Shown: positions 1,532-11,395 of the stretch, one piece after another
Numbering within the stretch: position 1 is the first letter of the stretch
Layout of the letters: every line of letters begins with the position of its first letter
Virus record (IMG/VR): IMGVR_UViG_2585427777_000024
Location: 1 to 11,395 of that record
Source: a virus
Taxonomy: Duplodnaviria; Heunggongvirae; Uroviricota; Caudoviricetes
Reading direction: 5' to 3' (one strand)
Length of the DNA: 11,395 bases
The notes under the pieces: model-generated
Database searches by the model: none
The model's input: only the letters and a program-made list of their open reading frames with translations
What the model was told of the DNA's origin: nothing
Program-made: the position numbers and the translations under genes

Positions 1532-1741
1532 TTAATTTGAATACAATGCAATTCTCGAGGACTGAAGTTTCTCGCAATTAAAATTTATCAGTTTTACTTT
1601 CTGCTCTCTGGAAACGCCTGCTTCTTTTTTACCTGAGAGCATTTTTTCGCATTCTGATTTCGTTAGTTTAGATTTTGAATATCTTGTCCAGTTAGTAGGA
1701 GTGCCACCTTCCTTTTCAATAGTGGCGGTAATTTTATACAT
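1532..1741 (-). CDS. ydaC: Small prophage protein YdaC-like, 69 aa
   Basis: Start chosen at the ATG preceded by GGAGGTG with a 5-nt spacer; this ATG overlaps the ralR stop (ATGTATAA). The longest ORF (93 aa, to 1813) would overlap ralR extensively. Confidence 0.65.
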   Translation of the reverse strand: MYKITATIEKEGGTPTNWTRYSKSKLTKSECEKMLSGKKEAGVSREQKVKLINFNCEKLQSSRIALYSN

Positions 1742-1928
1742 GAACACCTCCATTATTATTTCCAGTGGTTCGTTTATTCCATCTTTCGAGTGCTTCTTTT
1801 TCACTTCCACCATAACCGGTTCGGGATTCGCATCCGTTACACTTCGCTCGGTAATATCCTGAAATGGCTTTCACCGTTACTGATGGACAACCACAAAATG
1901 GACATGGTTTAACATTGTCATATCTCAT
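1734..1928 (-). CDS. ralR: RalR/Lar restriction-alleviation protein and type I toxin (DNase), 64 aa
   Basis: Translation MRYDNVKPCPFCGCPSVTVKAISGYYRAKCNGCESRTGYGGSEKEALERWNKRTTGNNNGGVHV matches recalled Rac Lar/RalR, including Cys-rich zinc-ribbon-like motifs. In-frame upstream ATGs give 68- or 77-aa alternatives. Confidence 0.85.
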   Translation of the reverse strand: MRYDNVKPCPFCGCPSVTVKAISGYYRAKCNGCESRTGYGGSEKEALERWNKRTTGNNNGGVHV

Positions 1929-2794: not shown

Positions 2795-5387
2795 TTGCAT
2801 ATTCCTTAGCCCAGCGGGGCAGTGATAATGTCTTAATAGCTGGCCATTCATCGGTATTCAGGCAGTCAGACAGGGTTCGCAGATTGCGGTGATATTCCTG
2901 TTGACCTGCCAGTTTTGCTTCTTCGCCCATCATGAAAATTTCAACCGGATAACGTCCGCATTCAATAGTTGTGCTGGCAACCAGAAAAACGAAAGTTGGC
3001 TGCACTCCAAACTGTGCTTCATAACCGTCACTGTAGAATGCATCCTGAACGTGATAGCGGTAGTCGTAATAAGCGGTTTTGAATCGTTGAATATCCGCCG
3101 TAGTTTTCACGTCCATGATCCAGTGAAATTCAGGGATAATTTTGTCCGGACGGCACCGACACAAAATTCCTGTTTCAGGATCTTCCCAGTAAATTGATGA
3201 TTCAGCGTGTCCGGCGCTTTCAACAAGCCATTGCCCCAGCGGCAAAGCCATAACGCTTTGATACATGAGTTCAATTTTCCGGTCTTCTTCCGCAGTGATA
3301 ACCGTTTTTCCTGTGCTTGCGCATTCCATCAGAAACGCTTTCTCTTCTTCTTTTCCGGCGTTTGTACGGCGGTTAAATTCAGGTGCTACGATAAAGCGGT
3401 TACTGAATTCTTCCGGTTCAAGTACCCGGCAGTGGAAAGCAGTTCCTAAATCGAGCGTTTTTGTCTTTGTGGTGTCCACGGGGGCATTTTTACGCCACAA
3501 ATATAGTGCCGGAGTATCAGCAATGTCATCGAGCTGAGACTTACTGATACCGGGACCCGCGTGGTAATTCTCATTCGAAATTCTGTAATAAATACCTGGC
3601 TCTATGTCTTCTACGATTACGGGATCTGCGACTTCGCCAGTTTCATCACTGCAATCGCGATGCGGATCGCTGCCAGCATTCTCATTGTGCGGATGTTCAG
3701 CGCCTTCCATTTCCTCCGGATCATTTTCCTTAGCTTCAACCTGACTCTTTTCATCGAATGTTTCCTGGTATGTTGCGTCGCCCATCACCGCACCACAGTC
3801 AGGGCAGTTATCCCCGCCAGTCTGGCCGCAGGCATTGCAGGCTATTTCCGGTTCCTGTTGCACTACTGGCTCAGGTTGATTCATATCTGGGCTGGTTTTT
3901 TCCGTTTCTGGCTGGTTCTGGTACACACAATCGCGAGTCTGGATCCCCTTTACCCATTTCGGATCGTTCGGGTCGCTAATTCCGTCAACAAATTCACCAC
4001 GTGATGCAGCAAGCAATTTATCGGCATCGACAGGATTTTTTGATGGAATGTTTTTCCGGGCTTCATGGAGTTCTGCCCGCAGTTCCTGATATTTCGCATC
4101 AACAGAATTTACCTGTGACTGAGCATCCAGCGGCTGCGTGTCCTGATGATGTTCAGTTGCGTCCGGTTCCATTGTTTCAGCCTCTCCCTGTTCAACTGCC
4201 GTTGTTCCAGATGGTTGCGGTTTTTCTTCATCATCCTGTTTTCCTTCTTCTGTTACTCGCTGCGGCATCGGGGCAGAGGAGCGACCGCAGGCAATATCCA
4301 CGATTTCCGGATCAGGGTTGGCATGATCGGTTTCAGTCAGTACTTTGTTCAGATATTCAGTGACGTGCGCGGGGATGACCTCGATCCCAATTGGTGCTTC
4401 TTTTACGGACGCAACCACGATGGCGCGGGAATAATCCAGCCCGCCAGGCATGGTGATGAATTTGTCGCGGAAAACAGAAAAGGGCGGTTTATTTTCAGCG
4501 ATAATTTCCTCAATGCGTTTAGCGTGTGCCGGATGAAGGTTATAGATGTCCAGATCCATTGAACGGGCCAGTACGCCAGTGGCTACGTCGCGCGCCAGTG
4601 ACGTCAGATCGTGTACGAAACCTTCGCCGCGATCGGTGAGGTTTCCGCCGCCAGCATTAGCACCGGAAGCCGTGCGAGTGATGTGTGAAACACGATTACC
4701 CTTCATCCATTCTTTTGTCAGCAGTCCTCGATCGGTGTAGTCAGCGTTCAGGTATGCTTCGAAAAAAGCAGTTATCAGTCCCAAGTTTGAATTACCAGGA
4801 TTAGGGAAAACTTTGTCAGTGTCACGAACCAGTTTGTGGAGTTCGCGAATTTCCAGCGGGTCGAGCAGGCTGGTTTTGTGGGAAACAGCCAGGGCAGTAA
4901 CAGCCGGTAGTTCTTCAGCCCGAGCAATGTGTAATGCCTGGAGTCCGTCGCGTGAAACGTGCGTTACCGGTTTTTCGCTGCCGTGTTGAGCAAGCCAACG
5001 AATGGGCAGTTCCTGGCCAGAAATTGGGAGTAGCATATTCTCCTCAATCTCAGTCATGTCTTCGCCGTTGACGTTGGTATTGCCTTGATAGTGAGCGTTG
5101 TCTGGTGCTGCTCCCGGTTTTAGTTCCCATGTCATGGAGTCTTTGCTGAGTTGATAGCGTTCACTCCAGGTAAAATCGATCTCACCTTCAGCGGGCAGGT
5201 CATTAACGACAGGAAAATTCGTGGCAACAGCTTTAAAATAGCTGCTCAGTTTTTTACCTGACTTAACGATCAGGTAGTCCAGAGTGGCACAGGTCGATTC
5301 AAAATCGTTGCTTGCCCACAGGACGACGTCAGGTTCACCGGATGATTTTTTCGCTTTCCGTAACAGGAAGAGTGGTTTTGTGCTCAT
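2787..5387 (-). CDS. recE: RecE exonuclease VIII, 866 aa, full length
   Basis: Uninterrupted 866-aa ORF; N-terminus [14 protein letters not shown] and C-terminal nuclease domain recognised as RecE. No frameshift or internal stop. Confidence 0.95.
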
Positions 5388-7397: not shown

Positions 7398-7535
7398 TTA
7401 CGCCTCGGGCTGGCTACTTAACCCCTGACCACTGCCTGGTAACTCGAAGTATTGCCCTGCGTTCTGTGGGGCGGGGTGGGTTGGTAGGTATATAATGTAC
7501 TTTGTGTTCATTGATGTAAAGTACTTTAAGTACAT
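7398..7535 (-). CDS. Small ORF of 45 aa (37 aa from second ATG at 7511), possibly ydaG by position
   Basis: Manual translation MYLKYFTSMNTKYIIYLPTHPAPQNAGQYFELPGSGQGLSSQPEA. No convincing SD. The stop lies 4 nt before the ydaF 78-aa start. Called by synteny only. Confidence 0.3.
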   Translation of the reverse strand: MYLKYFTSMNTKYIIYLPTHPAPQNAGQYFELPGSGQGLSSQPEA

Positions 7536-7536
7536 T
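7494..7536. promoter_or_regulatory. Inverted pair of AATGTACTT motifs with a central GTACTT-T-AAGTAC palindrome, just 3' of racR
   Basis: AATGTACTT at 7494-7502 (+) and its reverse complement at 7528-7536. The same ATGTACT core recurs twice in the racR-ydaS intergenic region. A TATAAT hexamer sits at 7491-7496. Confidence 0.4.
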
Positions 7537-7610
7537 TTGTGTGTAAAAAAATGAGATGGGATAAAGTGAAGCACAAACCCGGAGGGGGACGCTACCGGAT
7601 TTATGCTGGT

Positions 7611-8030
7611 TTAAGAGGCTTTTTGTTTTTTCTTTCGTGCTAGCTCTTCGTAAATTGCATTGTACTTCTGTTTTTTCTCCTCAAGAGTTTTTAAAAGTTC
7701 ATCTGTCTCACTGTCAGGGAGCTCGTCCAGAAGGTCAATGATGATTTTTTGTCTTGGATTTAACTCCTGATAGAAACGTACCTGTCCACTTTCTTCTGTA
7801 TCCTCTCCCAAAAGATAGGTTGGTGTTGTTCCAATGAGTGTTGCTAATTCCCTTAATTTCTCTCGGCGAGGAATTGTTTCGCCATTAAACCATTTGCTAA
7901 CCGCTTTTGGTGTTAATTTCATTCGACGGGCAATTTCTGCCTGCCTTCCATGTTGTTCATAACCAGCGTTTTCACAGGCTAGCGCAAGCCTACTGGCGAA
8001 CTCTTTACGCGCTTTATCTTCATGAACCAT
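7611..8030 (-). CDS. racR: RacR-type prophage repressor, HTH (XRE/CI-like), 139 aa
   Basis: The N-terminus has an HTH-like segment (QAEIARRMKLTPKAVSKWFNGETIP). Divergent from ydaS, as cI is from cro. No in-frame upstream ATG or GTG before the stop. Confidence 0.8.
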   Translation of the reverse strand: MVHEDKARKEFASRLALACENAGYEQHGRQAEIARRMKLTPKAVSKWFNGETIPRREKLRELATLIGTTPTYLLGEDTEESGQVRFYQELNPRQKIIIDLLDELPDSETDELLKTLEEKKQKYNAIYEELARKKKQKAS

Positions 8031-8109
8031 AAGTTCAATGATATTCGCTCTTGAATGTACTGTCAGTTCTGTTATAGCATGTACTCAAAGTTCACATTGT
8101 GAGGGTGAT
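8031..8109. promoter_or_regulatory. racR-ydaS divergent control region with two direct ATGTACT repeats
   Basis: ATGTACT at 8055-8061 and 8079-8085 (24-bp spacing). Candidate -35 TTGAAT (8051-8056) and -10 TATAGC (8073-8078) for ydaS. Strong SD GAGGG 5 nt before the ydaS ATG at 8110. Confidence 0.5.
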
Positions 8110-8364
8110 ATGAACCAGAAAACACTTGAAGATGTAATCAAAACTGTTCGCGTTTCTGTTGTGGCCGACGTTTGTGGTGTCAGCCAAAGAGCAATCTACA
8201 AATGGATGGATAACGGAAAATTGCCTCGCACAGAATATACCGGCGAAACAAATTACGCTGAAAAAATCGCTCATGCATCAAACGGATTATTTTCTGCTGA
8301 TGTAATTTTAACTATTGGCAGAAATAAAACTACTACGAAAAAGCTGATGGGAGTTGATTCATGA
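8110..8364 (+). CDS. ydaS: YdaS Cro-like HTH protein, 84 aa
   Basis: Start at 8110 (GAGGGTGATATG). The longest ORF (from 8038) would begin only 7 bp from the racR start, leaving no room for divergent promoters. HTH-like segment VADVCGVSQRAIYKWMDNGKLP. Confidence 0.8.
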   Translation: MNQKTLEDVIKTVRVSVVADVCGVSQRAIYKWMDNGKLPRTEYTGETNYAEKIAHASNGLFSADVILTIGRNKTTTKKLMGVDS

Positions 8365-8783
8365 AAATCAAGCATGAGCACATCGAGTCAGTGTTGTTAG
8401 CCCTGGCAGCCGAAAAAGGGCAGGCATGGGTAGCCAATGCCATTACTGAAGAATATCTGCGCCAGGGGGGCGGCGAATTGCCCCTGGTACCAGGCAAGGA
8501 CTGGAATAATCAGCAGAATATCTATCACCGTTGGTTGAAAGGTGAAACGAAAACGCAAAGAGAAAAAATTCAGAAGCTGATCCCAGCAATTCTGGCAATC
8601 CTTCCGCGCGAGCTGCGTCACCGACTCTGCATCTTCGATACCCTGGAACGCCGTGCATTACTGGCGGCGCAGGAAGCGTTAAGTACGGCAATTGATGCGC
8701 ATGATGATGCAGTCCAAGCCGTTTACCGGAAAGCGCATTTCAGCGGCGGCGGGTCTTCCGACGATTCTGTCATTGTTCATTAA
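8361..8783 (+). CDS. ydaT: YdaT (CII-like, toxic when derepressed), 140 aa
   Basis: Start overlaps the ydaS stop (ATGA). Position and size fit Rac ydaT. Confidence 0.8.
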   Translation: MKIKHEHIESVLLALAAEKGQAWVANAITEEYLRQGGGELPLVPGKDWNNQQNIYHRWLKGETKTQREKIQKLIPAILAILPRELRHRLCIFDTLERRALLAAQEALSTAIDAHDDAVQAVYRKAHFSGGGSSDDSVIVH

Positions 8784-8795
8784 GCAAAAGTTTCC

Positions 8796-9653
8796 ATGCT
8801 GTTTGTGCTTATTCTAAGCCACCGGGCAGCATCATACGGGGCAATTATGGCCGCATTACCATACATGCAACTGTACATAGCTGATTACCTGGCTGACACC
8901 ATGCATTTGTCAGCAGAGGAGCATGGTGCGTATTTGTTGCTGATGTTCAATTACTGGCAAACAGGAAAGCCAATACCTAAAAACAGGCTGGCAAAAATTG
9001 CCCGTCTGACTAACGAGCGATGGGCTGATGTTGAACCATCCTTGCAGGAGTTTTTTTGCGATAACGGCGAGGAATGGGCGCATCTTCGGATTGAGGAAGA
9101 TCTGGCATCAGTCAGGGAAAAATTAACCAAAAAATCAGCCGCAGGAAAAGCATCTGTTCAGGCCAGAAGAAGCAGAAAGGAAGCAGATGTTCAAACAAAA
9201 CAAGAGAGAAATTTAACAGGTGTTCAAACAGATGTTGAAGTGGTGTTTGAACATGATGTCAACACAAAGGCAACTAATAAAGATACAGATAAAGATCTAA
9301 AAACAGATCCCCCCCTAAATCCCCCCCGGGGGAATCGAGGTGTCAAAAAGTTTGACCCTCTGGATATTGCTTTGCCGAACTGGATTTCTGTCTCGCTTTG
9401 GCGTGAGTGGGTTGAATTTCGCCAGGCATTGCGAAAACCGATTCGAACGGAGCAGGGCGCTAACGGGGCGATACGGGAGCTGGAAAAATTCCGCCAGCAG
9501 GGTTTTTCACCTGAGCAGGTGATTCGACACAGCATCGCCAATGAATACCAGGGCTTGTTCGCGCCGAAAGGTGTTCGACCTGAGACGTTACTCCGACAGG
9601 TTAACACCGTCTCGTTACCGGATAGTGCGATCCCGCCAGGCTTCAGGGGGTAA
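8796..9653 (+). CDS. ydaU: YdaU replication-initiator (lambda O-like) protein, 285 aa
   Basis: Full ORF; a possible alternative start is at 8847 (ACGGGG 5 nt upstream). Contains internal iteron-like repeats and a Pro-rich linker, as in lambda O. Confidence 0.8.
   Translation: MLFVLILSHRAASYGAIMAALPYMQLYIADYLADTMHLSAEEHGAYLLLMFNYWQTGKPIPKNRLAKIARLTNERWADVEPSLQEFFCDNGEEWAHLRIEEDLASVREKLTKKSAAGKASVQARRSRKEADVQTKQERNLTGVQTDVEVVFEHDVNTKATNKDTDKDLKTDPPLNPPRGNRGVKKFDPLDIALPNWISVSLWREWVEFRQALRKPIRTEQGANGAIRELEKFRQQGFSPEQVIRHSIANEYQGLFAPKGVRPETLLRQVNTVSLPDSAIPPGFRG
9184..9335. repeat. Candidate prophage replication origin: iteron-like TGTTCAAACA repeats, an AT-rich stretch, then C7-TAAAT-C7-G5 homopolymer tracts
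   Basis: TGTTCAAACA at 9188-9197 and 9221-9230, inverted copy TGTTTGAACA at 9244-9253, partial CAGATGTTGAA at 9229-9239. AT-rich 9262-9300. C and G runs at 9309-9332. All lie inside ydaU. Confidence 0.45.
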
Positions 9654-9659
9654 CTGACC

Positions 9660-10622
9660 ATGAAAAATATTGCGACAGGCGACGTTCTTGAACGTATCCG
9701 CAGACTGGCCCCGTCACATGTAACCGCGCCATTCAAGACGGTAGCGGAGTGGCGCGAGTGGCAACTTTCCGAAGGCCAGAAACGTTGTGAGGAGATCAAC
9801 CGTCAGAATCGTCAGTTGCGGGTGGAAAAAATTCTGAATCGCTCTGGCATCCAGCCATTGCACCGCAAATGCTCGTTTTCGAATTACCAGGTGCAGAACG
9901 AAGCGCAGCGATACGCGTTGAGTCAGGCGAAATCCATCGCTGATGAACTGATGACCGGGTGTACAAATTTTGCGTTCAGCGGAAAACCTGGTACCGGGAA
10001 GAACCACTTAGCGGCAGCTACTCGCGGCCTTAATAAGAAAAACTCTAAGCCGACAATAATCAATAAAGATTACAGTGTAGATACACTACTATCAGAGCTA
10101 TTTTTGAATGGCGCACACATGGAGCAACCCAACGTACACAACGTTTCTGAGGGAAACATGAAGTTCTATGATGAATGCCATGCTGGATTAATCAGACCAA
10201 TACCCGCTCCAATAGGCGCGTCATACGATGAAGAGATCACAATTAATTCTCCAGATTGGCAAAAGCTCGCGTGTGTAGCTTTACGCCGCTATCAGTCGAA
10301 GGAATGTCATGACGGAATGCAATGGGATACAACCGATCATGGTTGGACTGATGTAATCGCGTATCCATTCGTCGAAGAAATACAATCAATGGATAATAGT
10401 GGTTATCGACAATGTTTAGTTGGGCTGGTCACAATAAACAATTCAAATGCAAATTCTCCGTACCTATCTACCGTTTGGATACATCCATTTTATCGCAGGA
10501 GAGGGTTATTAAGTAAGTTATGGCCAAAATTACAAGAGTTATATGGAAGTAACTTCGAAATTGAGCGACCTAATGAAAATATGAAAGCATTTCTGAAAAG
10601 TGCGAAACACGCAGATTACTAA
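9660..10622 (+). CDS. Chimeric ORF, 320 aa: N-terminal ~120 aa of a DnaC/IstB-like helicase loader (YdaV) through the P-loop GKPGTGKN-HLAAA, fused in frame to ~200 aa of unrelated AT-rich sequence
   Basis: N-terminus MKNIATGDVLERIRRLAPSH... recalled as Rac YdaV. After HLAAA (about 10017-10022) the protein has no Walker B or sensor motifs. Hand-counted 60-bp samples give ~52% GC before the junction and ~37% after. Confidence 0.7.
   Translation: MKNIATGDVLERIRRLAPSHVTAPFKTVAEWREWQLSEGQKRCEEINRQNRQLRVEKILNRSGIQPLHRKCSFSNYQVQNEAQRYALSQAKSIADELMTGCTNFAFSGKPGTGKNHLAAATRGLNKKNSKPTIINKDYSVDTLLSELFLNGAHMEQPNVHNVSEGNMKFYDECHAGLIRPIPAPIGASYDEEITINSPDWQKLACVALRRYQSKECHDGMQWDTTDHGWTDVIAYPFVEEIQSMDNSGYRQCLVGLVTINNSNANSPYLSTVWIHPFYRRRGLLSKLWPKLQELYGSNFEIERPNENMKAFLKSAKHADY
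10158..10622 (+). CDS. Possible independent gene inside the chimeric ORF: 154-aa GNAT-like acetyltransferase candidate
   Basis: Internal ATG at 10158 preceded by GAGGGAAAC. Motif YLSTVWIHPFYRRRGLLSKL resembles GNAT motif A (beta4-alpha3, R-x-x-G-x-G/A-like), but the region after the motif is shorter than typical. Assignment is by eye only. Confidence 0.35.
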   Translation: MKFYDECHAGLIRPIPAPIGASYDEEITINSPDWQKLACVALRRYQSKECHDGMQWDTTDHGWTDVIAYPFVEEIQSMDNSGYRQCLVGLVTINNSNANSPYLSTVWIHPFYRRRGLLSKLWPKLQELYGSNFEIERPNENMKAFLKSAKHADY

Positions 10623-10733
10623 TTTATGAATCAGTCTGTGGAGTTAGAGTTGGTGTGAACAAGTAGGGTAAGAGCCTCAACGTGATGCTATGCCGACCTG
10701 CTCCCTGAGAATTCACACAGAAGGCTGCTAGCA

Positions 10734-11024
10734 ATGTCTGCAGATCGCTCAAAGCGGACTAGAAGGTTAGCTTGCGTCGGACTTGGCGTATTTAAAGAAG
10801 TGCTGGTGGTGACTGGTTGTTGTGTTCCATTTCTACAGAACAAAATCACAGAAACTATACCCAATAGTTGTATCTCATCAATGATGAGACAGCCTCATAT
10901 TTATCAGGACTGGTGTACGTCCAATACAGGAGGTTGTCGTGCTGGTTCTCAAATGTGCGCTGGCTATTGCAGCTGTAATGGCAATTTATTGTCTTGCTGT
11001 TGTTCTTATGGATCGCTTTTCTGA
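10734..11024 (+). CDS. Hypothetical 96-aa ORF with a Cys/Gly/Ser-rich C-terminus (12 Cys)
   Basis: The only long open frame in 10623-11035 (open from 10686). Weak SD. The Cys-rich tail overlaps a better-supported +1-frame hydrophobic peptide and has T-rich first codon positions, so at least the 3' part may be non-coding. Confidence 0.25.
   Translation: MSADRSKRTRRLACVGLGVFKEVLVVTGCCVPFLQNKITETIPNSCISSMMRQPHIYQDWCTSNTGGCRAGSQMCAGYCSCNGNLLSCCCSYGSLF
10873..10889. promoter_or_regulatory. 17-bp perfect palindrome TCTCATCA-A-TGATGAGA
   Basis: Seen directly. It lies ~40 bp upstream of the AGGAGG SD at 10928-10933. The 1-nt centre argues for a dimeric protein-binding site rather than an RNA hairpin. 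Confidence 0.4.
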
Positions 11025-11028
11025 TTGA
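10939..11028 (+). CDS. Candidate 29-aa hydrophobic (single-TM-like) peptide, GTG start: (M)LVLKCALAIAAVMAIYCLAVVLMDRFSD
   Basis: Consensus SD AGGAGG (10928-10933), 5-nt spacer, GTG at 10939. First codon positions are G-rich (13 of 29), unlike the overlapping frame. It ends 8 bp before the hok promoter -35. Confidence 0.35.
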   Translation: MLVLKCALAIAAVMAIYCLAVVLMDRFSD

Positions 11029-11035
11029 TTTTATA

Positions 11036-11064
11036 TTGGCGAGGTAACGGGAGTTAAGTAGAAT
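11036..11064 (+). promoter_or_regulatory. Candidate hok/mok mRNA promoter: -35 TTGGCG, 17-bp spacer, -10 TAGAAT
   Basis: Hexamers at 11036-11041 and 11059-11064. The predicted start (~11071) precedes GCTTGAGGCT, which resembles the 5' end of plasmid R1 hok mRNA as recalled. Confidence 0.4.
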
Positions 11065-11124
11065 GGCTGCGGGTGCTTGAGGCTATCTGTCTCAGGCATG
11101 AACACCAAAGGCAGATAGAGAAAA

Positions 11125-11226
11125 GCCCCAGTTAACATTACGCGTCCTGCAAGACGCTTAACATTAATCTGAGGCTCAATCTATGAACGGCAAATCTAGG
11201 TTAGCCTCTTACGTGCCGAAAGGCAA
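11125..11226 (-). ncRNA. Candidate Sok-like antisense RNA with its promoter (-35 TTGCCT at 11226-11221, -10 TAACCT at 11203-11198), antisense to the mok translation-initiation region
   Basis: Inferred from hok/sok architecture and weak promoter hexamers with 17-nt spacing. The RNA 3' end was not located, and no clear terminator was found. Confidence 0.3.
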
Positions 11227-11395
11227 GGAGAAGCAGGCTATGAAGCAGCAAAAGGCGATGTTAATCGCCCTGATCGTCATCTGTTTAACCGTCATAGTGA
11301 CGGCACTGGTAACGAGGAAAGACCTCTGCGAGGTACGAATCCGAACCGGCCAGACGGAGGTCGCTGTCTTCACAGCTTACGAACCTGAGGAGTAA
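11183..11395 (+). CDS. Mok-like reading frame, 70 aa, in-frame N-terminal extension of Hok
   Basis: ATG at 11183 preceded by GAGGCT with an 8-nt spacer. The 70-aa frame is co-terminal with hok. Confidence 0.5.
   Translation: MNGKSRLASYVPKGKEKQAMKQQKAMLIALIVICLTVIVTALVTRKDLCEVRIRTGQTEVAVFTAYEPEE
11240..11395 (+). CDS. hokD: Hok/Gef-family type I toxin, 51 aa, sequence of HokD (RelF)
   Basis: MKQQKAMLIALIVICLTVIVTALVTRKDLCEVRIRTGQTEVAVFTAYEPEE matches recalled HokD/RelF. AAGGAG lies 9 nt upstream. The window ends at its stop codon. Confidence 0.9.
   Translation: MKQQKAMLIALIVICLTVIVTALVTRKDLCEVRIRTGQTEVAVFTAYEPEE

What the first reader, a model, noticed from the sequence alone, without database searches (positions are those of the whole stretch)
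11036..11395. Complete hok/mok/sok-type locus encoding HokD (RelF) without relBE upstream
Hok here is the HokD/RelF sequence, which in K-12 lies at the 3' end of relBE in the Qin prophage and is generally regarded as lacking its own regulatory elements. In this window it has an in-frame 70-aa mok-like frame with its own SD, a candidate promoter (TTGGCG-17-TAGAAT), a 5' leader resembling the R1 hok mRNA start (GCTTGAGGCT with a long-range stem 11083-11089 / 11112-11118), and room for an antisense sok promoter. That suggests a potentially active type I toxin-antitoxin module adjacent to the Rac replication module.
Basis: partly seen in the sequence, partly recalled or inferred. Interest (0 to 1): 0.5.

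Follow-up and report, generated by a model that had tools for sequence, protein, structure and literature searches.

The report
Intact prophage hokD/mok/sok toxin-antitoxin cassette
The end of this window holds an ordinary, intact copy of a well-known small RNA-controlled "host-killing" toxin cassette (hok/mok/sok, the hokW/hokD type) that most E. coli carry in their lambda-like prophages; only the laboratory strain K-12 has the truncated version.

Summary
Window 11036-11395 holds the promoter, the full 5' leader, the mok frame and the hok gene of a hok/mok/sok type I toxin-antitoxin locus. Hok is 100% identical to K-12 HokD.

- **Family match:** the leader matches Rfam RF01794 over the whole model (110 bits, cut-off 59). 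Hok matches Pfam HOK_GEF.
- **K-12 comparison:** K-12 shares the sequence only from about 15 nt before the hok ATG, so K-12 is the rearranged form.
- **Sok promoter:** a minus-strand promoter, TTGCCT-17-TAACCT, sits where R1 and phage 933W have theirs. Its -10 box is the one mutated experimentally in sokW of Sp5.
- **RNA switch:** with the 3' end of a 100%-identical copy added, the predicted folds reproduce the canonical tac/fbi to tac/ucb switch.

This is not new. Phage 933W has carried the annotation mokW/hokW/sokW since 1999, and this window is 94% identical to it. Sp5 hokW-sokW was shown to be functional in 2021. The leader is present in 4266 of 5426 complete E. coli genomes.

Two limits remain. 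The 3' fbi element and terminator lie beyond the window end, and activity in this strain is untested.

One side observation: the only hypervariable stretch among these cassettes is the Sok 5' tail and its target loop.

The parts
11036..11064 (+). hok promoter candidate: -35 TTGGCG (11036-11041), 17-nt spacer, -10 TAGAAT (11059-11064)
   Evidence: Consensus scan, 9 of 12 matches. The -10 TAGAAT is nearly invariant in 68 related cassettes, while the sequence upstream of -35 differs between groups, so the cassette boundary lies here. It aligns with the R1 hok promoter region. Promoter activity is inferred, not measured.
11071..11082 (+). tac element (GGGUGCUUGAGG), the 5' end of hok mRNA; transcription start inferred at about 11071
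   Evidence: Start of the Rfam RF01794 match. It aligns with R1 hok mRNA +1, GGCGCUUGAGG. In the MFE fold it pairs with the 3' fbi in the full-length RNA and with ucb in the 3'-truncated RNA. The helix is 99.9% paired in 69 relatives, but invariant.
11083..11118 (+).
   Evidence: Rfam consensus structure and MFE fold. One pair shows a compensatory AU to GC change in 4 relatives.
11125..11129 (+). ucb (anti-Shine-Dalgarno, GCCCC)
   Evidence: Pairs with the mok SD (GAGGC) in the full-length fold and with tac in the truncated fold. The element names follow PMC9841398.
11121..11191 (-). Sok antisense RNA, about 71 nt; coordinates transferred from the sokW feature of phage 933W
   Evidence: 933W annotates sokW at the aligned position. 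The RNA folds into a 5' single-stranded tail, a long hairpin and a U-rich 3' end, at -33 kcal/mol with z = -5.8. It overlaps the mok start by 9 nt, as K-12 sokC overlaps mokC. No expression data exist for this strain.
11198..11227 (-). Sok promoter on the minus strand: -35 TTGCCT (11227-11222), 17-nt spacer, -10 TAACCT (11203-11198)
   Evidence: Read directly from the sequence. It aligns with R1 TTGCGC-17-TATCCT. The same TAGGTTA was changed to CCGGCTC to make the sokW promoter-less mutant, which became toxic (PMC8621323, primers YO-421/422).
11171..11208 (+). mok SD (GAGG, 11171-11174) and the SD-mok/dcb hairpin, which is the Sok target; dcb AGCCUC at 11203-11208
   Evidence: This hairpin forms only in the 3'-truncated fold. 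All 17 sequence variants in relatives keep the GAGGC/GCCUC stem with a variable loop.
11183..11395 (+). mok reading frame: 70 codons, in frame with hok, encoding an N-terminally extended Hok
   Evidence: ORF list. PHROG 251 'MokW-like host killing', E = 7.7e-33. The same 57-nt in-frame layout is seen in 933W mokW/hokW, in K-12 mokC/hokC and in 60 of 68 related cassettes.
11226..11230 (+). hok Shine-Dalgarno (AGGAG), 9 nt before the hok ATG; identity with K-12 relE-hokD begins here, at about 11225
   Evidence: Sequence and alignment with K-12.
11240..11395 (+). hok toxin gene, 51 aa, identical to K-12 HokD/RelF
   Evidence: 100% nucleotide identity to K-12 hokD. Pfam PF01848 HOK_GEF scores 82.9 bits. 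RefSeq annotates the identical copies as hokD.

Best explanation
This is an intact hok/mok/sok type I toxin-antitoxin cassette of the prophage hokD/hokW subtype. It sits between the replication genes and the nin/Q region of a Rac-like lambdoid prophage.

Inferred mechanism, by homology with plasmid R1 hok/sok and Sp5 hokW-sokW:
1. A weak constitutive promoter (11036-11064) makes a hok mRNA of about 425 nt, starting near 11071.
2. In the full-length RNA the 5' tac pairs with the 3' fbi, which lies beyond the window. ucb (11125-11129) then covers the mok Shine-Dalgarno, so the RNA is neither translated nor bound by Sok.
3. Slow 3' trimming removes fbi. tac then pairs with ucb, and the mok SD moves into the SD-mok/dcb hairpin (11171-11208).
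4. Either ribosomes start at mok (11183) and read on into hok, or the unstable Sok RNA (about 71 nt, 11191 to 11121 on the minus strand) binds through its single-stranded 5' tail and the duplex is degraded by RNase III.
5. When Sok supply stops, through loss of the element or prophage induction, the stable hok mRNA pool is translated. The 51-aa membrane peptide (or its 70-aa Mok-extended form) then depolarises and kills the cell.

Shown here: every sequence element up to the hok stop codon, and the predicted folds. Inferred: transcription, 3' processing, Sok action, toxicity in this strain, and the presence of fbi and the terminator beyond the window.
For: - **Family matches:** Rfam RF01794 matches over the full model at 110 bits (cut-off 59). 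That compares with 113.5 bits for 933W hokW, 88.9 for the R1 type, and no match for K-12 relE-hokD. Pfam HOK_GEF and PHROG 251 'MokW-like' also match.
- **Closest relative:** 93.9% nucleotide identity to 933W / VT2-Sakai (Sp5) over 345 nt, where mokW, hokW and sokW are annotated.
- **Sok promoter:** TTGCCT-17-TAACCT aligns with the R1 promoter. Its -10 box is the one whose mutation made hokW-sokW toxic. In that study sokW and hokW RNAs were seen on Northern blots, and HokW reached the inner membrane (PMC8621323).
- **Folds:** these used the 3' end of a copy that is 100% identical over window 10900-11395. Full length: nt 1-12 pair with nt 374-386, and ucb pairs with the mok SD. Truncated: nt 1-8 pair with nt 53-59, and GAGGCU pairs with AGCCUC. 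This is the switch described for R1 (PMC9841398).
- **Relatives:** 69 relatives keep 95% of the predicted pairs, with compensatory changes in two helices. 0 of 500 shuffles reached the observed covariation.
- **Cassette boundaries:** homology among relatives runs from the hok -35 box to the terminator.
- **Toxicity:** HokD peptide is toxic when expressed (bioRxiv 10.1101/2025.08.07.668861).
Against: - The window ends at the hok stop codon. The fbi element, the 3' stem-loop and the terminator are therefore unseen for this genome. A truncation there would give a constitutively open mRNA or a dead locus.
- There are no expression data for this strain.
[quoted passage not shown] An intact sequence therefore does not guarantee a phenotype.
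- The tac/fbi helix is invariant in the relatives sampled, so it is supported by conservation and energy only, not by covariation within this subtype.
- The host prophage looks defective, since it has a fused, truncated ydaV. An induction-linked role may therefore be moot here.
Confidence: 0.85

Rival explanations
1. The cassette is intact in sequence but functionally silent: a selfish remnant that rides along in a cryptic prophage. Sok is always in excess, and no physiological condition releases Hok.
For: The native chromosomal hokA, hokB and hokC loci did not give post-segregational killing or rifampicin activation (summary of Pedersen & Gerdes 1999 in the bioRxiv paper). The prophage here has a fused, truncated DnaC-like gene, so it may not be inducible. 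Genomes carry a median of 2 and up to 9 copies of the leader, which fits passive hitch-hiking with prophages.
Against: All regulatory elements are nearly invariant across 68 distinct cassettes, whereas neutral decay would scatter changes. The 94%-identical hokW-sokW becomes toxic when the Sok promoter is mutated, and it produces HokW on prophage induction.
Confidence: 0.25
2. The locus works mainly as a phage-lifecycle or defence module rather than as an addiction module. Hok would be released on prophage induction to speed lysis and phage release, as proposed for Sp5. Alternatively it would be released on infection by another phage that shuts off host transcription, giving abortive infection.
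For: In Sp5, sokW disappears after mitomycin C and HokW appears in a RecA-dependent manner about 1 h before endolysin. Deleting the locus halves phage release (PMC8621323). hok genes are about four-fold enriched in prophages (bioRxiv). The cassette always sits in the early-right region, between the replication and nin/Q genes.
Against: This describes biological role rather than molecular mechanism, so it is compatible with the best explanation. The two-fold effect in Sp5 is small. The bioRxiv study found no enrichment of hok next to defence systems. This Rac-like element may not be inducible.
Confidence: 0.3
3. The upstream 70-aa frame is a chance open frame rather than a real mok. Hok would be translated only from its own AGGAG-ATG, and Sok would act directly on hok.
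For: Mok codons 2-5 are hypervariable, and 8 of 68 cassettes have a different, out-of-frame 19-codon version. The Mok peptide sequence is therefore not conserved.
Against: An ATG with a GAGG 8 nt upstream is present in every cassette at the same place. It always lies inside the Sok-complementary region and inside the switchable hairpin. The frame is either open through hok or ends in an ATGA overlap with the hok start, and both arrangements carry ribosomes to the hok start. In R1 the requirement for mok translation is established (PMC9841398 and Thisted & Gerdes 1992 as cited there).
Confidence: 0.05

Closest known systems
mokW/hokW/sokW of Stx2 phages 933W and Sp5 (VT2-Sakai)
   Same: - 93.9% nucleotide identity over 345 nt.
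- Same 70-codon in-frame mok and 51-aa Hok.
- Same hok -10 box.
- Identical Sok -35 and -10 boxes.
- Same leader structure (Rfam 113.5 versus 110 bits).

   Different: - Hok differs in 5 residues, 4 of them in the C-terminal tail: ...VFTAYEPEE here versus ...VFVDYESEK in 933W.
- Mok codons 2-5 differ (NGKS versus LNTC), so the Sok 5' tail differs.
- 933W lacks the AACCCGCTTCGGCGGGTTTT terminator seen after copies identical to the window.
- The host element is a Rac-like prophage, not an Stx phage.

hokD (relF) of E. coli K-12, in the relBE-hokD operon of prophage Qin
   Same: The hok ORF and its SD are identical, and the 3' fbi and terminator match those of the window's identical relatives. 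It occupies the same relative position, upstream of a DUF968 gene and Q.
   Different: K-12 lacks everything upstream of about window 11225: the hok promoter, tac, ucb, mok, the Sok RNA and the Sok -10 box. These are replaced by relE. It gives no Rfam leader match. Only 2 of 71 distinct IMG/VR cassettes with this Hok protein have the K-12 junction.
hok/mok/sok (parB) of plasmid R1
   Same: The order of elements and the switch logic are the same: tac, 5' hairpin, ucb, the Sok terminator hairpin, mok SD, dcb, hok SD, then a 3' stem-loop and fbi. The conserved blocks are GCTTGAGGCT, GGCAGA.AGA...AGCCCC and AGCCTCTTAC...GCAAGGAGAAG.AGGC. The Sok promoter is in the same place.
   Different: - The Hok protein is strongly diverged. 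HokW, which is close to this Hok, shares 44% identity with R1 Hok.
- R1 mok is out of frame with hok (58 nt versus 57 nt) and encodes an unrelated 70-aa peptide.
- R1 is plasmid-borne.
- The tac/fbi sequences differ on both sides (GGCGCUU/AAGCGCC versus GGGUGCUU/AACGCACCC), which is consistent with co-variation between subfamilies.
mokC/hokC/sokC (gef) of the E. coli chromosome
   Same: In-frame mok 57 nt upstream of hok; Sok overlaps the mok start by 9 nt; the same 21-nt tac motif.
   Different: It is a core-chromosome locus (next to IS186 in K-12) rather than prophage cargo. The Hok sequence differs (MKQHKAMIVAL...), and so does the Sok target loop.

Membership tests
hok/mok/sok type I toxin-antitoxin family | Small hydrophobic toxin of the Hok/Gef family | tested here: met
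   Pfam PF01848 scores 82.9 bits (cut-off 22) over the full 42-position profile. The peptide is identical to K-12 HokD.
hok/mok/sok type I toxin-antitoxin family | Conserved 5' leader of hok mRNA with its secondary structure (tac stem, 5' hairpin, Sok-terminator hairpin, Sok-target hairpin, hok SD hairpin) | tested here: met
   Rfam RF01794 matches model positions 1-157 of 157 at 110 bits (cut-off 59), E = 7e-25, on the hok-sense strand.
hok/mok/sok type I toxin-antitoxin family | Upstream overlapping mok frame with its own Shine-Dalgarno, located inside the Sok-complementary region | tested here: met
   GAGG at 11171-11174, and an ATG at 11183 that is open through hok. The same feature occurs in all 68 relatives with a leader.
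hok/mok/sok type I toxin-antitoxin family | cis-encoded antisense Sok RNA with its own promoter and terminator hairpin | tested here: met
   Tested at sequence level only. The promoter TTGCCT-17-TAACCT is positioned as in R1 and 933W. The predicted 71-77 nt RNA has a hairpin and a U-tract, with z = -5.8. Transcription was not tested.
hok/mok/sok type I toxin-antitoxin family | 5'-3' fold-back (tac/fbi) that locks the full-length mRNA | tested here: inconclusive
   The tac half is present at 11071-11082, but the fbi half lies beyond the window end. In a copy 100% identical over 10900-11395 the two pair (nt 1-12 with nt 374-386). The helix is 99.9% paired in 69 relatives.
hok/mok/sok type I toxin-antitoxin family | Alternative pairings ucb/SD-mok (closed) and tac/ucb plus SD-mok/dcb (open) | tested here: met
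   Both states appear as MFE structures, of the full-length and the 3'-truncated RNA respectively. These are predictions, not probing data.
hok/mok/sok type I toxin-antitoxin family | Toxicity of Hok and neutralisation by Sok | not testable with these tools
   This was shown for the 94%-identical hokW-sokW (PMC8621323) and for the HokD peptide (bioRxiv), but not for this copy.
K-12-type relBE-hokD (relBEF) arrangement | relE immediately upstream, with the hok leader replaced | tested here: not met
   The window has the leader instead of relE. Homology with K-12 starts only at about 11225.

The most novel reading that the evidence does not exclude
Among cassettes that encode the identical HokD peptide, almost all variation is packed into about 25 nt (window 11175-11199). 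This stretch is at once mok codons 1-5, the loop of the Sok-target hairpin, and the single-stranded 5' recognition tail of Sok.

There are at least 9 sequence classes, and the hairpin is preserved in every one. Co-resident copies in the few multi-copy genomes examined all belong to different classes.

The most novel reading not excluded is that prophage hok/sok cassettes are under diversifying selection for Sok-target specificity. The classes would then be 'immunity groups'. The Sok of one prophage could not protect the cell against loss of another prophage, or against an incoming phage carrying a different class. The window would carry the 'MNGKS' class.
Probability: 0.25. Interest if true: 0.45.

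Novelty: already known. Interest (0 to 1): 0.12.

Why it matters
It matters mostly as a correction of perspective. The textbook K-12 hokD, which lacks a leader and is fused to relBE, is the exception. The intact self-regulated cassette seen here is the common state in E. coli prophages. For annotation, the region should carry mok, hok and a Sok RNA feature; RefSeq copies list only hokD.

The locus adds a second RNA-controlled toxin, besides ralR/RalA, to this Rac-like element. That may contribute to the element's retention. Nothing here opens a new question about the hok mechanism. The only lead with some novelty is the hypervariable Sok-recognition segment.

Tried and rejected
- **Source genome:** I looked for the exact source genome, to read past the window end. 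No complete E. coli genome covers more than 82% of window 7400-11395, so the element is a mosaic. The 3' end therefore had to be taken from copies identical over 10900-11395.
- **Original papers:** Pedersen & Gerdes 1999 and Steif & Meyer 2012 are not held. The statements about K-12 hokD rest on later open-access papers that cite them.
- **tac/fbi covariation:** the helix is invariant within the hokD subtype, so this test is uninformative. Only the comparison with R1 shows changes on both sides.
- **Within-genome diversity of the Sok-target segment:** only about 6 multi-copy genomes were available. All differ between copies, but with at least 9 classes that is not significant.
- **29-aa ORF upstream of hok:** I considered that it might be part of the module or a second toxin. 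It has no family hit in Pfam, NCBIfam or PHROGs. It is present in only 22 of the fetched loci, so it is not part of the cassette.
- **96-aa Cys-rich ORF at 10734-11024:** it has no family hit and overlaps the 29-aa ORF, so I treated it as probably spurious.
- **YUNR U-turn motif:** by eye I found no clear YUNR motif in the loop of this variant's target hairpin. I did not pursue this.

Full report
**What is in the sequence.** The window is a Rac-like lambdoid prophage. It carries an integrase, recT/recE, racR, ydaS/T/U and a ydaV-like gene. Its last 360 bases contain the following:
- a sigma-70-like promoter, TTGGCG-17-TAGAAT, at 11036-11064;
- a 169-nt leader;
- an ATG at 11183, preceded by GAGG 8 nt upstream;
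- a second ATG at 11240, preceded by AGGAG.

Both ATGs are in one frame that ends at the last base of the window. The shorter product (51 aa) is identical to K-12 HokD/RelF, and the DNA is 100% identical to K-12 hokD. It matches Pfam HOK_GEF at 82.9 bits against a cut-off of 22. The longer product (70 aa) matches PHROG 251, 'MokW-like host killing'.

**Is it more than chance?** Rfam family RF01794 is named 'sok' but is modelled on the hok-sense leader. It matches 11071-11245 on the + strand over all 157 model positions, at 110 bits (gathering score 59), E = 7e-25. The same search gives 113.5 bits for phage 933W hokW and 88.9 bits for an R1-type plasmid hok. It gives no hit at all in the K-12 relE-hokD locus.

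**Relation to K-12 hokD.** Aligned with K-12, identity starts at about 11225, some 15 nt before the hok ATG, and continues through the ORF. Upstream of that point K-12 has the end of relE. K-12 has therefore lost the hok promoter, tac, ucb, mok, the Sok RNA and the Sok -10 box, but it keeps the 3' fbi and terminator. This agrees with later papers that cite Pedersen & Gerdes 1999, which say K-12 hokD was inactivated by a genomic rearrangement (PMC12214031, PMC7232551). The original paper is not held.

**The Sok gene.** Phage 933W (AF125520) annotates mokW, hokW and a 71-nt antisense sokW. The window is 93.9% identical to it over 345 nt. Transferring the sokW feature through the alignment gives window 11191 to 11121 on the minus strand. 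Upstream of it on the minus strand lies TTGCCT-17-TAACCT (11227-11198), which aligns with R1's TTGCGC-17-TATCCT.

In the Sp5 study, the 'promoter-less' sokW mutant was made by changing TAGGTTA to CCGGCTC (primers YO-421/422). TAGGTTA is exactly the sequence at window 11197-11203. That mutant became toxic and was rescued by sokW supplied in trans. Northern blots detected both RNAs (PMC8621323). The predicted Sok RNA folds into a free 5' tail of about 14 nt, a long hairpin and a U-rich end (-33 kcal/mol, z = -5.8).

**The mRNA switch.** The window ends at the hok stop codon, so the 3' quarter of the mRNA is missing. A prophage in E. coli A27 is 100% identical over window 10900-11395. It continues with a GC-rich stem-loop, then CCTCAACGCACCCGC, which is complementary to the 5' GCGGGTGCTTGAGG, and then a terminator.

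Folding this 425-nt RNA gives nt 1-12 paired with nt 374-386 (tac/fbi), and GCC.C (ucb) paired with the mok SD. Folding the RNA cut after the 3' stem-loop gives nt 1-8 paired with nt 53-59 (tac/ucb). GAGGCU then pairs with AGCCUC, forming the SD-mok/dcb hairpin that holds the mok start. This is the closed-to-open switch described for R1 (PMC9841398).

On 69 related cassettes, 95.1% of the cells of the full-length structure are paired. Ten pairs have compensatory changes, and 0 of 500 shuffles reach the observed covariation. The tac/fbi helix itself is invariant, so within this subtype it is supported only by conservation. Between R1 and this subtype both sides of tac/fbi differ.

**How common it is.**
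- The leader alone (11060-11245) is found at 80% coverage or more in 4266 of 5426 complete E. coli genomes. The median is 2 copies and the maximum 9, and RefSeq annotates them as hokD.
- In IMG/VR, 80 loci encode the identical HokD peptide. Of 71 distinct sequences, 68 carry the full leader, 2 have the K-12 relE junction and 1 has another junction.
- Homology among cassettes starts at the hok -35 box and ends after the terminator, so this is a discrete module of about 0.5 kb.
- In A27, phage Tritos, phage HannyBb and K-12 Qin it lies between the replication genes and the DUF968/RusA/Q region. 'Adjacent to the replication module' is therefore the usual place.
- The 21-nt tac motif also occurs in hok loci of Shigella, E. 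albertii, Klebsiella, Kluyvera, Atlantibacter, Yokenella and Yersinia.

**The mok frame.** Here mok is in frame with hok (57 nt apart), so 'Mok' is an N-terminally extended Hok. The same holds for 933W mokW, for K-12 mokC and for 60 of 68 related cassettes. The other 8 have a 19-codon out-of-frame mok that ends in an ATGA overlap with the hok start. R1 mok is out of frame, at 58 nt. What is conserved is a translated start upstream of hok and inside the Sok target, not a peptide sequence.

**Verdict.** This is a self-regulated hokD-type locus, unlike K-12's, and it is potentially active. It is also already known: it was annotated in 933W in 1999, shown to be functional in Sp5 in 2021, and catalogued as prophage-enriched (bioRxiv 10.1101/2025.08.07.668861). 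Two uncertainties remain, namely the unseen 3' end in this genome and the absence of expression data. Native chromosomal hokA, hokB and hokC loci gave no killing phenotype in earlier tests, so a silent state is a real alternative.

**Side observation.** Among the 68 cassettes, positional entropy peaks sharply at 11175-11199. This stretch holds mok codons 1-5, the loop of the Sok-target hairpin and the Sok 5' tail. There are at least 9 classes, and every one keeps the hairpin. Co-resident copies in S. flexneri, E. coli ECMA0423 and E. albertii all differ there, but the sample is too small for a test. This could reflect selection for distinct Sok specificities, and it is the only part with some potential novelty.

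Noticed in passing
window 1557-1735 (+), overlapping the ORF at 1532-1813 (-): RalA sRNA matches Rfam RF02694 at 225 bits over the full model. It is antisense to the ralR toxin ORF, so the window carries a second type I toxin-antitoxin pair typical of Rac.
   Followed up: partly
window 9660-10622 (+): This 320-aa ORF is a fusion. Residues 1-126 match the DnaC-like loader YdaV but stop at profile position 126 of 248. Residues 120-320 match the C-terminal two-thirds of PHROG 16994 (unknown function, weak GNAT signal). The replication module is probably defective or recombinant.
   Followed up: partly
window 10939-11028 (+): A 29-aa hydrophobic ORF (VLVLKCALAIAAVMAIYCLAVVLMDRFSD) starts at a GTG with AGGAGG upstream and ends 8 nt before the hok -35 box. 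It is found in 22 of the fetched loci, with conservative substitutions, and has no Pfam, NCBIfam or PHROG match. It may be an unannotated small membrane protein.
   Followed up: partly
window 11175-11199; alignment A4 columns about 144-167: This is the only hypervariable stretch among 68 cassettes that encode the identical HokD. It coincides with the Sok 5' tail, the target-hairpin loop and mok codons 1-5. There are at least 9 classes, the hairpin is kept in all of them, and co-resident copies in multi-copy genomes differ.
   Followed up: partly
loci L007, L017, L026, L029, L043, L058, L062, L083 (around locus position 2940-3000): Eight cassettes have a 2-nt deletion plus a 1-nt insertion. These put mok out of frame, leaving a 19-codon ORF that ends in an ATGA overlap with the hok start. 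The mok-hok frame relation is therefore polymorphic within one subtype.
   Followed up: yes
window 11378-11381: The Tyr47 codon of hok lies in a TACG context. This is the motif reported for TadA A-to-I mRNA editing of hokB, hokC, hokD and hokE, which recodes Tyr to Cys (PMC12214031).
   Followed up: no
L082 2821-3000: One IMG/VR contig has the identical hokD ORF and 3' end, but an upstream sequence that is neither the leader nor relE. This is a third kind of truncation junction, again breaking near the hok SD.
   Followed up: no
L094 6059-6745; L141 3608-4830: Klebsiella sp. MISC125 and K. spallanzanii each carry two tandem hok cassettes 0.7-1.2 kb apart, with the same 21-nt tac motif.
   Followed up: no
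L101, L116, L132 (Photobacterium damselae); L090, L099, L119, L144 (MAGs labelled Segatella, Collinsella, Alistipes, Veillonella): The exact 21-nt enterobacterial tac motif occurs on three contigs of a Vibrionaceae genome, where my crude filter found no Hok ORF. It also occurs on short contigs of MAGs from unrelated phyla, which are probably mis-binned E. coli prophage fragments.
   Followed up: no
window 11057-11028 (-): A promoter-like site on the minus strand (TTAACT-18-TAAAAT) is divergent from and overlaps the hok promoter. Its significance is unknown.
   Followed up: no
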